Below, one piece after another: positions 23,893-60,558 of a stretch of 64,000 bases of DNA. Position 1 is the first letter of the stretch. Each line of letters begins with the position of its first letter. The position numbers and the translations under genes are program-made. A model generated the notes under the pieces. It ran no database searches. It was not told the origin of the DNA and saw only the letters and a list, made by a program, of their open reading frames with translations. The stretch lies in assembly GCF_013167455.1 (NCBI RefSeq), contig NZ_CP038328.1. One strand, given 5' to 3'. The DNA is from Escherichia coli O157:H7 (lineage in GTDB: Bacteria; Pseudomonadota; Gammaproteobacteria; Enterobacterales; Enterobacteriaceae).

Positions 23893-23998
23893 CAGTCCCC
23901 TCGCCCCGTTTGGGGAGAGGGTTAGGGTGAGGGGAACAGGCCAGCATCGGTGCGAAAAATTACCCTCACCCCGACCCTCTCCCTGGAAGGGAGAGGGA
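23893..23998. repeat. GC-rich multi-hairpin intergenic repeat (boxC-like)
   Basis: Nested inverted repeats CCCCTCGCCCC/GGGGAGAGGG, GGGTGAGGG...CCCTCACCC and CCCTCTCCC-TGGAA-GGGAGAGGG between the sstT promoter and the alx stop. Confidence 0.5.
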
Positions 23999-24050: not shown

Positions 24051-25016
24051 TCATCCAACCCGCTGCTTATCATGCCGATAATTCACCCAGGCGTTGATAA
24101 TAAACGTCATCACCAGGATGCCAAACACCACGCCCAGCGAGACGGCGATTGGAATATGGTAGAAGTCGACAATCAGCATCTTGATACCGATAAACACCAG
24201 AATCACCGCCAGGCCATATTTGAGCATCGAGAAACGCTCTGCTACGCCCGCCAGCAGGAAATACATCGCACGCAGGCCGAGGATCGCAAACAGGTTTGAG
24301 GTCAGCACAATGAACGGGTCAGTGGTCACGGCGAAGATAGCCGGAATGCTATCCACGGCAAAAATCACGTCGCTCAATTCCACCAGAATCAGTACCAGCA
24401 TCAGCGGTGTGGCGTACAGCAATCCATTCTTACGCACAAAGAAATGCTCGTTGTCGATGGTGTCGGTCATGCGCAAATGACCGCGTAGCCAGCGCACCAG
24501 CGGCTTGTCGCCAATGCCTGATTCATCTTCATGGGCGAGCGCCATCTTCACGCCGGTAAACAGCAGGAAGGCACCGAAGATATACAGGATCCAGTCGAAC
24601 TGCGAAATCAGCCAGCTGCCAGTGAAGATCATGATGGTACGCAGAACAATCGCCCCGAGCACGCCATACACCAGCACGCGGCGTTGTAATGCCGCCGGAA
24701 CGGAGAAATAGCTGAACAACATCAGCCAGACAAAGACGTTATCGACCGCCAGCGACTTCTCAATCAGATAACCCGTGAGGAAGGCCAGCGCCTGTGGATC
24801 GGCAACGGCGCGACCTTCGGTTTGTACCAGATACCACCAGAAAGCAGCGTTAAACAGTAACGACAGCGTCACCCAGACCAGCGACCAGGCCGCAGCCTGT
24901 TTCATGGTCATGGCATGTGCCCCACGACGTCCCTGCAACAACAGGTCGATAGCCAGCATAATGGCGACAACAACAGCGAATCCGCCCCATAGCAACGGCG
25001 TGCCGACAGTATTCAT
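24051..25016 (-). CDS. alx: TerC-family membrane protein Alx
   Basis: 321 aa polytopic membrane protein. Confidence 0.9.
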
Positions 25017-25270
25017 AGAAGTTCCTTACACATAAAAAAAACGGCCAACGTCGGAAGACGTCAGCCGCTGCTTTTTATGCATAGACCTCGCCTTCCGGCA
25101 AGGTCTCACTTACAACAAAAAAGGAATACGTCTGCGTATTCCTTTCGGGTTGCCCGGTGACCGGATGTGGTTTTTCACACATCGTAATGACGATCGACCG
25201 GCAATGAAGTTACTCCCCTTTGCAGGTAACAAAGTATGACAGACCATTCAGTCAGTCAATGGTCTGTTAC
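25017..25270 (-). promoter_or_regulatory. alx 5' leader: yybP-ykoY-type (Mn2+/alkaline-pH responsive) riboswitch-like element
   Basis: Minus-strand leader contains the hallmark AAAGGGGAGUAAC motif plus two hairpin/U-run structures (GAAAGGAAUACG-CAGA-CGUAUUCCUUUUUU and GACGUCUUCCGACGUUGGCCGUUUUUUUU) upstream of the alx ATG. Confidence 0.6.
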
Positions 25271-25299
25271 ATACCTTTTACACTGTTTTACTTTGGCAA

Positions 25300-26286
25300 T
25301 TATAGTTTTACGCTATCTGCCGGAAAAATCACCCCAGTCTGGCGGCGGATCTCGGTCAGCAGTTTGGCTGTGATGCGACTGACCGCCAGCCCTGGATGAT
25401 CCACCAGATGCTCATCCACCAGGGTAGCGAACAGCTCTGCTTCGTAGAGCATGGTATTAATATGCTGCGGCTGGGTGAGATCCTGCATCTGGCTGCCACG
25501 CGGCACGAAGCACACTTTCTGGCATTCAGACAGTTTTTCAATCACCAGCGATCCCGCTTCGCCCTGAATCTCGCTTGCCAGGACAGAATCGCTGACCTTT
25601 GAGTGCTGCAAGGTGACGCTGAAATCACCGTAATCCATCACCACCACGCCGTGGGCATCTACACCACTTGCCAGTAAACTGGCGGTTGCCTGCACGCTTT
25701 TCGGCTCACCAAATAACGCTACCGCCGACGCCAGGCAGTAAAAGCCGATATCCATAATTGAACCGTTAGAGAATGCCGGATTAAAGGTGTTGGGATTCTC
25801 ACCGTCCAGGTAACGTTGATACCGCGAGGAATACTGGCAATAGTTGAAAAAAACTTTCCGCAGTTTGCCGACTTTCGGCAGCGCCTGGCGTAACAGATGA
25901 AAGTTAGGCAGGCTGGCCGTTTTAAATGCCTCAAACAGCACCACCTGATTTTCACGCGCGCAGGCAATGGCTGCATCCACTTCCGCCAGATTCGACGCCA
26001 GTGGTTTCTCACAAATCACATGAATTTTGTGGCTCAGGAAAAGTTGCGTCTGGGAAAAATGCAGGGCGTTCGGGCTGGCAATATACACCGCGTCGATAGC
26101 GTCACTTTCCGCCATTGCTTCCAGCGAAGTAAACAGATGCTCGACAGAAAACTCATTGGCGAAGTGCTGGGCCTGTTCAAGGCTGCGGGAATAAACGGCG
26201 GTTAACTTATATTTACCGCTTTCATGTGCGGCCTCCACGAACTGGTGAGTTATCCAGTTCGTACCAATCACGGCGAAACGTATCAT
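25300..26286 (-). CDS. ygjR: Gfo/Idh/MocA-family NAD(P)-dependent oxidoreductase YgjR
   Basis: ATG at 26286 (MIRFAVIGTNWITHQF... Rossmann N-terminus); 328 aa. Confidence 0.85.
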   Translation of the reverse strand: MIRFAVIGTNWITHQFVEAAHESGKYKLTAVYSRSLEQAQHFANEFSVEHLFTSLEAMAESDAIDAVYIASPNALHFSQTQLFLSHKIHVICEKPLASNLAEVDAAIACARENQVVLFEAFKTASLPNFHLLRQALPKVGKLRKVFFNYCQYSSRYQRYLDGENPNTFNPAFSNGSIMDIGFYCLASAVALFGEPKSVQATASLLASGVDAHGVVVMDYGDFSVTLQHSKVSDSVLASEIQGEAGSLVIEKLSECQKVCFVPRGSQMQDLTQPQHINTMLYEAELFATLVDEHLVDHPGLAVSRITAKLLTEIRRQTGVIFPADSVKL

Positions 26287-26364
26287 AACGCGTGGATACT
26301 CCATAAAGGGATTCTGTCGTCAATGTAGCACGCCTTTTTCATCTTCGACGTGCGCGGATACGCA

Positions 26365-32062: not shown

Positions 32063-32452
<390 letters not shown>

Positions 32453-48024: not shown

Positions 48025-48099
48025 GGTGGCCCCTGCTGGACTTGAACCAGCGACCAAGCGATTATGAGTCGCCTGCTCTAACCACTGAGCTAAGGGGCC
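48025..48099 (-). tRNA. ileX: tRNA-Ile2 (anticodon CAU, lysidine-modified; K-12 ileX)
   Basis: Minus-strand sequence GGCCCCTTAGCTCAGTGGTTAGAGCAGGCGACTCATAATCGCTTGGTCGCTGGTTCAAGTCCAGCAGGGGCCACCA folds as a cloverleaf; encoded CCA end; anticodon loop CTCATAA. Confidence 0.9.
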
Positions 48100-60431: not shown

Positions 60432-60558
60432 GTAGGCCGAATAAGGCGTTCACGCCGCGTCCGGCAATCAACGCTTGATGCGACGCTTGCGCGTCTTATC
60501 AGGCCTACAACTGTCGTTGACATGTAGCCGGATAAGGCGTTTACGCCGCATCCGGCAA
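60432..60558. repeat. BIME: three REP palindromes in alternating orientation
   Basis: GTAGGCCGAATAAGGCG...; TGATGCGACGCTTGCGCGTCTTATCAGGCCTAC; GTAGCCGGATAAGGCGTTTACGCCGCATCCGGCAA. Confidence 0.75.

What the first reader, a model, noticed from the sequence alone, without database searches (positions are those of the whole stretch)
25017..25270. alx leader carries a yybP-ykoY-type riboswitch signature with two internal hairpin/U-run structures
The minus-strand leader contains the GGGGAGUA core typical of Mn2+-sensing yybP-ykoY riboswitches. Downstream lie two hairpins each followed by a U-run, consistent with pause or attenuation sites that allow alternative folding. Alx is a TerC-family protein, in line with metal-linked regulation.
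Basis: partly seen in the sequence, partly recalled or inferred. Interest (0 to 1): 0.4.

Follow-up and report, generated by a model that had tools for sequence, protein, structure and literature searches.

The report
E. coli alx manganese/pH riboswitch leader
This is the well-studied E. coli alx leader RNA (PRE/SraF), a manganese- and pH-responsive riboswitch with two built-in terminators controlling a TerC-family Mn exporter; it is real but already known, and the standard Rfam model fails to detect it.

Summary
The window is E. coli. The 283-nt ygjR-alx spacer carries GGGGAGUA (25218-25211, minus strand) and two hairpin/U-run terminator-like sites (25146-25119 and 25069-25040). This is the published alx riboswitch (PRE, SraF), a three-way-junction variant of the yybP-ykoY Mn2+ aptamer. 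Its crystal structure is solved (PDB 9JGM) and its termination sites are mapped at about 108 and 190 nt.

My own work adds four points. Rfam 15 RF00080 reports nothing for alx even at E<=10, nor for 17 orthologous leaders, and the crystallised E. coli mntP aptamer scores only 41.6 bits against a gathering score of 45. (2) The octamer alone is chance-level (0.72 expected per 64 kb); the composite L1/L3/GAGACC signature is not (0 of 100 shuffles). (3) An alignment of 73 enterobacterial leaders shows compensatory changes in P3.1, P3.2, P4, the P6 terminator and a P5-loop x P6-loop anti-terminator helix. (4) The second terminator is universal (73/73). The first (P4 with a U-run of 5 or more) occurs in only 10/73, and strong Shine-Dalgarno occlusion is lineage-restricted.

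The parts
25231..25259 (-). Putative sigma-70 promoter: TTGACT (25259-25254), 17-nt spacer, TACTTT (25236-25231)
   Evidence: Read directly from the sequence. It is placed so that +1 falls at 25224. The tool's stricter consensus scan did not call it. Inferred, not tested.
25097..25224 (-). alx-type Mn2+ aptamer (RNA nt 1-128; +1 = 25224), a three-way junction of P1, P3 and P4
   Evidence: My covariance model R1, built from 70 orthologous aptamers, hits here at 117.8 bits, E = 3e-29; the next best hit in 64 kb scores 11 bits. The numbering matches the published labels A11, A37, A114 and A137.
25211..25223 (-). P1.1 5' strand (nt 2-8) and L1 5' strand (nt 9-14); contains GGGGAGUA
   Evidence: Invariant in 73 of 73 leaders. 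9 of 10 bases are identical to mntP GGGGAGUAGC.
25202..25210 (-). P1.2 5' strand ACUU (nt 15-18) and the 'L2' cap C19-G23 that replaces helix P2
   Evidence: No P2 hairpin is present in the sequence. The crystal-structure pairs U17-A115, U18-A114 and C19-G23 are quoted in PMC12934788.
25154..25201 (-). P3.1, L3 and P3.2 hairpin (nt 24-71). L3 = GUCAUUAC (nt 34-41, 25191-25184). The Mn-coordinating A37 is at 25188
   Evidence: Compensatory changes in 6 of 10 P3.1 pairs and 5 of 6 P3.2 pairs. G34-A37 and A40-G42 are invariant.
25113..25152 (-). P4 helix (nt 73-112), also called hairpin B or terminator B; its U-run is nt 103-108 (25122-25117)
   Evidence: Terminator-like site. The three tested base pairs of P4 (A74-U111, A75-U110, C76-G109) all show compensatory change; C73-G112 is invariant. 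In vitro, about 43-46% of complexes terminate at about 108 nt (PMC9472077). A U-run of 5 or more occurs in only 10 of 73 species.
25098..25111 (-). [quoted passage not shown]
   Evidence: Invariant in 73 of 73 leaders. GAGACC is shared with mntP. This strand pairs either in P1.1 or in P5.
25083..25106 (-). P5 anti-aptamer hairpin (nt 119-142) with a GGAA loop; sequesters the P1.1 3' strand in the OFF state
   Evidence: Present in the minimum-energy fold and in the minimum-energy folds of 57 of 73 species. 91% of cells are paired, with no compensatory change.
25034..25069 (-). P6 intrinsic terminator, also called hairpin D (stem nt 156-185, loop UUCC, U-run nt 184-191); the 3' end of the SraF RNA
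   Evidence: Terminator-like site. 95.7% of cells paired, 3 pairs with compensatory change. A U-rich tail is present in 73 of 73 leaders. Termination at about 190 nt is reported in PMC9472077.
25052..25097 (-). ON-state anti-terminator helix: nt 128-136 (CGGAAGGCG; P5 3'-end, loop and 3' strand) pairs with nt 165-173 (CGUCUUCCG; P6 5' strand and loop)
   Evidence: 9 pairs, 99.4% of cells paired, 3 pairs with compensatory change: GGAAGG/CUUCC becomes GAAUGG/CAUUC, GAAAGG/CUUUC or GGGAGG/CCUUCC. It corresponds to the published 'hairpin C/D' or 'P5/P6' helix.
25014..25027 (-). Shine-Dalgarno AAGGA (25027-25023), spacer, and the alx AUG (25016-25014)
   Evidence: In the minimum-energy OFF fold, A198-G200 pair with C16-U18 and the spacer ACUUCU pairs with G8-U13. 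The duplex energy is -10.7 kcal/mol, z = -2.3.
24051..25016 (-). alx coding sequence (321 aa, TerC family), the regulated gene
   Evidence: ORF list. Pfam PF03741, E = 1e-53. RefSeq product name 'TerC family membrane protein Alx'.

Best explanation
The segment is the 5' leader of E. coli alx, known as the pH-responsive element (PRE) and as SraF. It is a co-transcriptionally acting, Mn2+-sensing riboswitch of the yybP-ykoY family in its enterobacterial three-way-junction form.

How it works:
1. The transcript starts at about 25224 (inferred).
2. The left leg (P3.1, L3, P3.2 and P4) folds first.
3. P4 with its U-run acts as a leaky intrinsic terminator that discards part of the transcripts at about 108 nt (shown in the literature).
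4. Once nt 114-127 emerge, they can close P1.2 and P1.1. L1 then docks on L3 to form the Mn2+ site, with the contact at A37 (shown in the literature: crystal structure, smFRET).
5. Without Mn2+, the next segment invades P1.1 to form hairpin P5, and terminator P6 folds. Some transcripts end at about 190 nt as SraF. In full-length mRNA the freed 5' strand GGGGAGUAACUU pairs with the Shine-Dalgarno region. This is the OFF state (my folds, plus published probing).
6. With Mn2+ bound, which alkaline pH favours, P1.1 is held and P5 cannot form. Its CGGAAGGCG segment instead pairs with CGUCUUCCG of P6. That disrupts the terminator and leaves the ribosome-binding site open. This is the ON state (alternative helix supported by my covariation; functional outcome from published reporters: 21-fold with Mn, 68-fold at alkaline pH for translation; 2.7-fold and 5-fold for transcription).

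The OFF fold is 16-25 kcal/mol more stable in the nearest-neighbour model. ON must therefore be captured kinetically in the window of about 128-142 nt, where pauses have been mapped (inference that joins my folds to published pause sites).
For: Identity: the leader is 100% identical in many E. coli genomes and present in 5419 of 5426, lying between ygjR and alx.

Anatomy: sequence; terminator scan; fold z = -7.9.

Composite signature L1..L3..GAGACC: once in the window, 0 of 100 shuffles.

Conservation: 73 of 80 alx orthologue loci, from Escherichia to Serratia, Pantoea and Erwinia, carry the same arrangement.

Covariation: overall 98.1% (ON) and 95.1% (OFF) of cells paired, against 19-46% when partner columns are slid. 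Compensatory pairs: P3.1 6 of 10, P3.2 5 of 6, P4 base 3 of 3, ON helix 3 of 9, P6 3 of 13.

My covariance model R1: 117.8 bits at 25097-25224 and nothing else in the window.

Shared core with the crystallised mntP aptamer: GGGGAGUAAC vs GGGGAGUAGC, GUCAUUAC vs GUCAACAUAC, GAGACC. R1's best hit on the mntP locus is the mntP aptamer's P1.1/L1/P1.2 leg.

Energetics: OFF -97.0 kcal/mol against -80.6 and -72.4 with the aptamer helices enforced; P1.1 is in the minimum-energy fold at 128 nt and displaced at 142 nt.

Literature: three-way junction without P2, termination site in P4, P5/P6 platform (PMC12153347). Termination at about 108 and 190 nt, pauses at 142-144 and 177/183/184 (PMC9472077). Crystal structure 9JGM; A37U abolishes the response (PMC12934788). 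Reporter fold-changes (PMC10197570). Downstream protein is TerC.
Against: Rfam 15 RF00080 gives no hit at E<=1 on 6 kb, at E<=10 on 331 nt, or at gathering score on the whole window. PGAP annotates no riboswitch here.

My alx-type model scores mntP at only 5.8 bits, E about 0.1. Covariance models therefore do not link alx to the canonical family significantly in either direction.

P1.1, P1.2 and P5 show no compensatory change because their strands are invariant or nearly so, so comparison neither supports nor refutes them.

Strong Shine-Dalgarno occlusion is predicted in only a minority of species: 22 of 73 in minimum-energy folds, and 14 of 73 with duplex z <= -2.

Published probing shows only modest Mn-dependent differences in the expression platform in vitro. 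Published termination at site D is only 10-13% in vitro.
Confidence: 0.93

Rival explanations
1. The leader is a pure pH sensor that works only through pH-dependent RNA polymerase pausing (the original PRE model). The yybP-ykoY resemblance would be vestigial and Mn2+ irrelevant.
For: The element was first described as a pH-responsive element under kinetic control by pausing (summarised in PMC9472077). Rfam does not recognise it as a Mn riboswitch. Its L3 differs from the family consensus, UCAUUAC against ACAUACU.
Against: Pause lifetimes are shortened or unchanged, not prolonged, at alkaline pH (PMC9472077). Mn alone induces translation 21-fold. A37U abolishes the pH response, and alkaline pH raises cytoplasmic Mn. 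L1, the L3 adenosine and GAGACC are invariant across 73 species, as expected for a functional metal site.
Confidence: 0.04
2. The conserved, primary output of alx-type leaders is transcription attenuation: Mn-dependent anti-termination at P6 through the P5-loop x P6-loop helix. Shine-Dalgarno occlusion and the P4 terminator would be lineage-specific additions that are prominent in E. coli.
For: The P6 terminator with a U-rich tail is present in 73 of 73 leaders. The ON helix that competes with P6 co-varies and is 99.4% paired. A P4 U-run of 5 or more occurs in only 10 of 73. The SD is unpaired in 36 of 73 minimum-energy folds, and the median occlusion duplex has z = -0.36. The E. coli transcriptional reporter does respond, 5-fold to pH and 2.7-fold to Mn.
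Against: In E. coli the translational response (68-fold and 21-fold) dwarfs the transcriptional one. In vitro termination at site D is only 10-13% and hardly changes with pH. Minimum-energy and duplex predictions are crude, and a short CUUCC x GGAAG contact covering the SD is still possible in 61 of 73 species. The same ON helix also frees the RBS, so its covariation does not discriminate between the two outputs.
Confidence: 0.25
3. The 108-nt and 190-nt terminated products (SraF) are the functional entity. They would be trans-acting small RNAs, and the cis effect on alx would be secondary.
For: Two efficient-looking terminators lie inside a 5' UTR. SraF was originally found as a discrete small RNA (PMC9472077). 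About half of transcripts end at site B in vitro.
Against: No target or trans phenotype is reported in the papers I read. The most conserved bases are the metal-binding core and the switch strands, not a free seed region. Terminator B is absent from most species. Deleting the PRE de-represses alx in cis.
Confidence: 0.05
4. The GGGGAGUA match is a chance octamer in a leader that merely carries ordinary terminators or a leader-peptide attenuator.
For: The octamer alone is expected 0.72 times per 64 kb. Rfam is negative. The ORF finder lists 35-aa and 45-aa ORFs inside the leader.
Against: The composite signature is absent from 100 shuffles. The motifs are invariant in 73 species while the intervening stems co-vary. 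The 45-aa ORF starts upstream of +1. The 35-aa ORF starts inside P3.2 and runs through P4, whose length varies from 10 to 61 nt, not in multiples of three, so no reading frame is conserved.
Confidence: 0.01

Closest known systems
E. coli alx riboswitch, also called the pH-responsive element (PRE) or SraF/IS160/tpk1 RNA
   Same: It is this element. The sequence is 100% identical to many E. coli genomes. The labelled residues A11, A37, A114 and A137, the termination sites at about 108-110 and 190 nt, and helices P5 and P6 all map exactly when +1 is placed at 25224.
   Different: Nothing differs in the window copy. The names IS160 and tpk1 are from my memory, not checked here.
Canonical yybP-ykoY Mn2+ riboswitch (Rfam RF00080; E. 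coli mntP, L. lactis yoaB, X. oryzae)
   Same: [quoted passage not shown] A P3 hairpin with internal loop L3 that carries the Mn-coordinating adenosine after GUC. A P4 hairpin. A position upstream of a Mn exporter. The ON switch works by stabilising P1.1 (literature).
   Different: No P2 helix, so it is a three-way junction with a 3-nt cap and not a four-way junction. L3 is UCAUUAC, not ACAUACU, and is 2 nt shorter. P4 doubles as an intrinsic terminator in E. coli. It responds to pH. It is not detected by RF00080, and its own model barely sees mntP (5.8 bits).
Classical terminator/anti-terminator riboswitch expression platforms (e.g. B. subtilis yybP/mntP-type transcriptional Mn switches)
   Same: An intrinsic terminator (P6) competes with an alternative helix whose formation depends on the state of the aptamer's P1 helix. 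The alternative helix co-varies.
   Different: The switch is a three-step relay: P1.1 against P5, then P5 and P6 against the loop-loop helix, and not a direct overlap of P1 with an anti-terminator. In E. coli the dominant measured output is translational.

Membership tests
yybP-ykoY (Mn2+) riboswitch | Conserved L1 5' strand GGGGAGUAG next to the P1.1 helix | tested here: met
   GGGGAGUAAC at nt 7-16 (25218-25209). 9 of 10 bases match mntP. Invariant in 73 of 73 orthologous leaders.
yybP-ykoY (Mn2+) riboswitch | 3' partner strand of L1 and P1.1 (GAGACC...) that closes a P1.1 'switch helix' | tested here: met
   GUGAGACCUUGC at nt 116-127. G2-C127, C3-G126, A4-U125, A5-U124, G7-C123 and G8-C122 can pair. 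Shared with mntP GGCGAGACC. The strands are invariant, so there is no covariation evidence.
yybP-ykoY (Mn2+) riboswitch | P3 hairpin interrupted by internal loop L3, which carries the invariant Mn-coordinating adenosine | tested here: met
   P3.1 and P3.2 co-vary in 6 of 10 and 5 of 6 pairs. L3 is GUCAUUAC with G34-A37 invariant. The L3 sequence is a variant of the family consensus (UCAUUAC vs ACAUACU).
yybP-ykoY (Mn2+) riboswitch | Four-way junction with a P2 hairpin between P1.2 and P3 | tested here: not met
   Only 5 nt (C19-G23) lie where mntP has a 20-nt P2 hairpin. The literature describes a three-way junction with an 'L2' cap. Specialists treat this as a structural subclass, not as grounds for exclusion.
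yybP-ykoY (Mn2+) riboswitch | Score at or above the Rfam RF00080 gathering threshold (45 bits) | tested here: not met
   No RF00080 alignment at E<=1 on 6 kb, at E<=10 on 331 nt, or at gathering score. None in 17 orthologous loci. The control, mntP, scores 41.6 bits, also below threshold. The criterion is too strict for enterobacterial members.
yybP-ykoY (Mn2+) riboswitch | Located in the 5' UTR of a Mn-homeostasis or exporter gene (TerC, MntP/UPF0016, P-type ATPase) | tested here: met
   It lies directly upstream of alx, a TerC-family protein (PF03741, 181.8 bits). The arrangement is conserved in 73 of 80 species.
yybP-ykoY (Mn2+) riboswitch | Binds Mn2+ at the L1/L3 interface and switches gene expression in response | not testable with these tools
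   Literature only: the Mn-bound crystal structure PDB 9JGM, smFRET docking, loss of response in A37U, and 21-fold induction by Mn (PMC12934788 and PMC10197570).
Intrinsic (Rho-independent) terminator (hairpins B/P4 and D/P6) | Stable G+C-containing stem-loop immediately followed by a U-run | tested here: met
   Both sites were called by the consensus scan: 12 pairs followed by a U-rich tail, and 13 pairs followed by a U-rich tail. The D-type tail is conserved in 73 of 73 leaders; a B-type U-run of 5 or more occurs in only 10 of 73.
Intrinsic (Rho-independent) terminator (hairpins B/P4 and D/P6) | Releases transcripts at the U-run | not testable with these tools
   Literature: RNAs of about 108 and 190 nt persist after chase. 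About 43-46% of complexes terminate at B and 10-13% at D (PMC9472077).

The most novel reading that the evidence does not exclude
Across Enterobacterales, the universally conserved and co-varying module of alx-type leaders is the P6 terminator together with its competing P5-loop x P6-loop helix. The P4 terminator and strong Shine-Dalgarno occlusion are confined to some lineages. On this reading the ancestral output would be Mn-dependent anti-termination, and the 'translational riboswitch' label would be an E. coli-centred view. Separately, Rfam RF00080 is blind to the whole alx clade. Censuses of 'alx-like' aptamers drawn from Rfam members therefore omit the real alx lineage; one preprint doing so found the alx L3 sequence only in Bacillales.
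Probability: 0.25. Interest if true: 0.35.

Novelty: already known. Interest (0 to 1): 0.12.

Why it matters
For the genome scan, this is a correct rediscovery of a textbook-level E. coli regulatory RNA, so it needs no follow-up as a discovery.

Its practical value is methodological. A covariance-model scan against Rfam, the obvious automated check, returns nothing for this experimentally and crystallographically validated riboswitch or for its orthologues in 17 other genera. It also puts the sister mntP aptamer below threshold. A pipeline that treats 'no Rfam hit' as refutation would wrongly discard it, and Rfam-derived phylogenetic surveys of alx-like aptamers will miss the clade.

The 73-species comparison also gives a compact, testable map of which parts of the switch are universal (the L1/L3 core, the P1.1/P5 strand, P6 and the loop-loop helix) and which are lineage-specific (the P4 terminator, the P3.2 and P4 expansions, the strength of the SD-occluding duplex).

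Tried and rejected
1. Rfam RF00080 as a decisive test. It was negative at every setting. I rejected it as a refutation after the mntP control scored 41.6 bits against a threshold of 45.

2. Reciprocal detection with my own alx-type model. It places its best hit on the mntP aptamer, but at 5.8 bits, E about 0.1. That is not significant, so I do not count it as proof of homology.

3. My first P1.2 assignment (A15-U113, C16-G112, G23-C73; used). It is superseded by the crystal-structure pairs U17-A115, U18-A114 and C19-G23, plus A15-U117, C16-G116 and C73-G112, which I inferred from complementarity. All these columns are invariant, so the covariation statistics for the other helices are unaffected.

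4. The low-scoring Rfam hits in the leader (STnc370, STnc240, RydC, SNORD2 and others, E = 0.27-9.8) and mir-3151 at 23908-23988. These are chance or terminator-shape matches, far below their gathering scores.

5. A leader-peptide reading of the 35-aa and 45-aa ORFs. Rejected: one starts upstream of +1, and the other crosses P4, whose length is variable and not in multiples of three.

6. The consensus promoter scan found no minus-strand promoter. The TTGACT-17-TACTTT assignment is by eye only.

7. Minimum-energy-fold analysis of SD partners is noisy, so I complemented it with duplex energies against shuffles. Both suggest lineage-restricted occlusion, but neither is conclusive.

Full report
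**What is in the sequence.**
The window is E. coli chromosome. The 331-nt stretch around the finding is 100% identical in many complete genomes and is present in 5419 of 5426 of them, between ygjR and alx. On the minus strand the gene order is ygjR (25300-26304), a 283-nt spacer, alx (24051-25016, 321 aa), then sstT.

The spacer contains GGGGAGTA at 25218-25211. It also contains exactly two terminator-like sites: stem 25146-25119 with a U-run, and stem 25069-25040 with a U-run. Shuffled sequence gives 0.7 +/- 0.7 such sites. Alx is a TerC-family protein (PF03741, 181.8 bits). The 220-nt leader folds at -97 kcal/mol, z = -7.9 against dinucleotide shuffles.

**Is it more than chance?**
About 0.72 copies are expected per 64 kb, and 53 of 100 shuffles contain one. 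A composite pattern that fits both alx and the validated mntP aptamer, GGGGAGTA-N15-35-GTCA-N50-80-GAGACC, occurs once in the window, here, and in 0 of 100 shuffles.

**The proposed check fails, and why that does not refute the finding.**
Rfam 15 RF00080 gives no alignment at any setting: E<=1 on 6 kb, E<=10 on 331 nt, or gathering score on the whole window. PGAP annotates no riboswitch here.

As a positive control I fetched the E. coli mntP leader, whose aptamer has a crystal structure. It hits RF00080 at only 41.6 bits, below the gathering score of 45 (E = 7e-10). The printed alignment shows that the current model pairs P2, P3 and P4 and treats L1 as a single-stranded 5' segment.

Seventeen alx leaders from other genera also give no RF00080 hit at E<=10. 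The miss is therefore a property of the whole class.

**Comparative anatomy.**
A scan of one genome per species returned 80 alx orthologue loci. In 73 of them the same arrangement precedes the ATG. GGGGAGUA is followed, usually exactly 27 nt later, by GUCAWW. GUAAGUGAGACCUUGCC sits 88-124 nt before the ATG in 72 of the 73 and at 222 nt in Erwinia persicina L047.

In a MAFFT alignment of 73 leaders (A1), several segments are invariant: the L1 strand, G34-A37 and A40-G42 of L3, and nt 112-129. The stems between them change.

I use RNA numbering with +1 at 25224. This reproduces the published residue labels A11, A37, A114 and A137. The helices are:

| Helix | RNA nt |
|---|---|
| P1.1 | 2-5/124-127 and 7-8/122-123 |
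| P1.2 | 15-18/114-117 |
| L2 cap | 19-23 |
| P3.1 | 24-28/67-71 and 30-33/63-66 |
| L3 | 34-41 |
| P3.2 | 42-47/56-61 |
| P4 | 73-76/109-112 and 79-90/95-106 |
| P5 | 119-128/133-142 |
| P6 | 156-168/173-185 |
| ON helix | 128-136/165-173 |

**Covariation.**

| Helix | Pairs with compensatory change | Cells paired |
|---|---|---|
| P3.1 | 6 of 10 | 99.0% |
| P3.2 | 5 of 6 | 92.0% |
| Base of P4 | 3 of 3 | 99.1% |
| P6 | 3 of 13 | 95.7% |
| ON helix | 3 of 9 | 99.4% |

The ON helix joins what are the loops of P5 and P6 in the OFF state, so its co-variation has no explanation other than pairing. The natural variants are GGAAGG/CUUCC, GAAUGG/CAUUC, GAAAGG/CUUUC and GGGAGG/CCUUCC.

Overall, 98.1% (ON structure) and 95.1% (OFF structure) of cells are paired, against 19-46% when the partner columns are slid by 1-3. 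None of 500 shuffles reaches the observed values. P1.1, P1.2 and P5 are invariant or vary on one side only, so comparison is silent on them.

**Relation to the canonical family.**
Side by side with mntP:
- L1: GGGGAGUAAC vs GGGGAGUAGC.
- L3: GUCAUUAC vs GUCAACAUAC.
- 3' strand: GAGACC in both.
- The 20-nt P2 hairpin of mntP has no counterpart in alx.

My covariance model of the alx-type aptamer (R1, from 70 sequences) scores the window element at 117.8 bits (E = 3e-29) and nothing else in 64 kb above 11 bits. On the mntP locus with filters off, its best hit is the mntP aptamer itself. Only the P1.1-L1-P1.2 leg aligns, at 5.8 bits, E about 0.1.

Covariance models therefore do not connect the two classes significantly in either direction. 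Membership rests on the shared metal-binding-core motifs and on experiment.

**What the literature already establishes.**
- alx is a yybP-ykoY member that lacks P2 (a three-way junction), has an intrinsic termination site in P4, differs in L3, and has a P5/P6 expression platform with an alternative 'P5/P6' helix in the active conformer (PMC12153347).
- Hairpins B and D are true intrinsic terminators. RNAs of about 108 and 190 nt persist after chase; 46% and 43% of complexes terminate at B, and 13% and 10% at D, at pH 7.2 and 8.5. Pauses map to 142-144 and to 177, 183 and 184. The 190-nt species is SraF (PMC9472077).
- A Mn-bound crystal structure exists (PDB 9JGM), with U17-A115, U18-A114 and C19-G23 forming the L2 cap. 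A37 contacts Mn2+, and A37U abolishes the response (PMC12934788).
- Reporters: translation rises 68-fold at alkaline pH and 21-fold with Mn. Transcription rises 5-fold and 2.7-fold, which the authors attribute to terminator D (PMC10197570).

The two U-runs in the window (nt 103-108 and 184-191) coincide with the published termination sites.

**Mechanism.**
My folds show the OFF state as the global minimum: P5 and P6 are formed, and G8-U13 and C16-U18 pair with the spacer and the Shine-Dalgarno sequence. Its energy is -97.0 kcal/mol. Enforcing P1.1 and P1.2 gives -80.6, and adding the ON helix gives -72.4.

In growing transcripts, P1.1 is in the minimum-energy fold at 128 nt and is displaced by P5 at 142 nt. 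That is exactly where the strongest pauses were mapped.

I infer the following. Mn2+-stabilised docking of L1 on L3 must hold P1.1 during this short window. The CGGAAGGCG segment then pairs with CGUCUUCCG, which blocks P6 and leaves the RBS free. Otherwise P5 and P6 form, some transcripts terminate, and in read-through mRNA the released 5' strand occludes the RBS.

**What varies in evolution.**
- **P6:** the terminator with a U-rich tail (at least 8 U in the first 10 nt) is present in 73 of 73 leaders.
- **P4:** it ranges from 10 to 61 nt, and only 10 of 73 have a U-run of 5 or more. 'Terminator B' is therefore a feature of Escherichia and a few other lineages.
- **SD occlusion:** the SD pairs with the 5' strand in only 22 of 73 minimum-energy folds and is unpaired in 36. 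The 5'-strand/RBS duplex is -10.7 kcal/mol (z = -2.3) in E. coli, but the median is -5.7 (z = -0.36), with 14 of 73 at z <= -2.

This leaves open a modestly novel reading: anti-termination at P6 is the conserved output. It is weakened by the dominance of translational control in E. coli reporters and by the low termination at site D in vitro.

**Verdict.**
The feature is real. The element is already known in detail. Interest as a discovery is low. The useful by-products are the documented Rfam blind spot and the map of conserved against lineage-specific parts.

Noticed in passing
window 23913-23983: A 24-nt inverted repeat (GGGAGAGGGTTAGGGTGAGGGGAA / TTACCCTCACCCCGACCCTCTCCC, 88% complementary) lies between the alx stop codon and sstT. 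It is a dispersed repeat with a median of 6 copies per E. coli genome, and it caused a spurious mir-3151 Rfam hit. From memory it resembles the boxC repeat family; I did not test that. It may also serve as the alx terminator.
   Followed up: partly
window 32115-32196, 32215-32296, 60435-60505 (+); 48027-48099 (-): Three naRNA4 (REP/BIME-type) matches above the Rfam gathering score, and one tRNA gene.
   Followed up: no
L005 (Escherichia albertii NBRC 107761) about 1117-1421: The alx aptamer is split inside P4 by an insertion of roughly 165 nt that carries REP-like palindromes. The P4 hairpin is duplicated on both sides. The 5' three-quarters of the aptamer scores 65.9 bits and the 3' end 17.9 bits with my model. 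Whether regulation survives is unknown.
   Followed up: partly
L014 (Siccibacter colletis) 1150-1500; L037 (Franconibacter pulveris) 1032-1500: Repeat-element insertions sit inside P4 of the aptamer. In L014 the inserted segment matches CssrA at 36 bits. Together with its 10-61 nt natural length range, this suggests P4 tolerates insertions.
   Followed up: partly
L016, L027, L055 (Phytobacter and relatives), P3.2 tip: A structured expansion of about 40-60 nt replaces the P3.2 capping loop. In L027 a further insertion separates the terminator from the ATG.
   Followed up: no
L025 (Atlantibacter sp. RC6) 1391-1415; L076 (Rouxiella aceris) upstream of 1501: L025 has lost the whole aptamer interior (GGGGAGUCACUUCCUUGCCGGAAGGCG) but keeps the P5 3' segment and P6. 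L076 has no aptamer but keeps a P6-like terminator. These are natural 'riboswitch-less' alx leaders.
   Followed up: no
L002 (E. coli K-12 mntP leader) 1162-1258: The crystallographically validated mntP Mn2+ aptamer scores 41.6 bits against RF00080, below the gathering score of 45. Gathering-threshold annotation would miss it too.
   Followed up: yes
Literature (PMC12934788, sections 9-10) compared: A 2026 preprint surveyed alx-like L3 and three-way-junction aptamers among Rfam RF00080 members and found the alx L3 sequence only in Bacillales. RF00080 does not detect the enterobacterial alx clade, so that survey cannot have included it. An earlier paper from the same group states that alx-like switches are exclusive to Enterobacterales.
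   Followed up: partly
window 25277-25306 (+): A promoter-like match, TTTACA-18-TATAGT (10 of 12), on the strand opposite the leader, pointing into the 3' end of ygjR. One such site was found against 0.6 expected, so it is probably chance.
   Followed up: no
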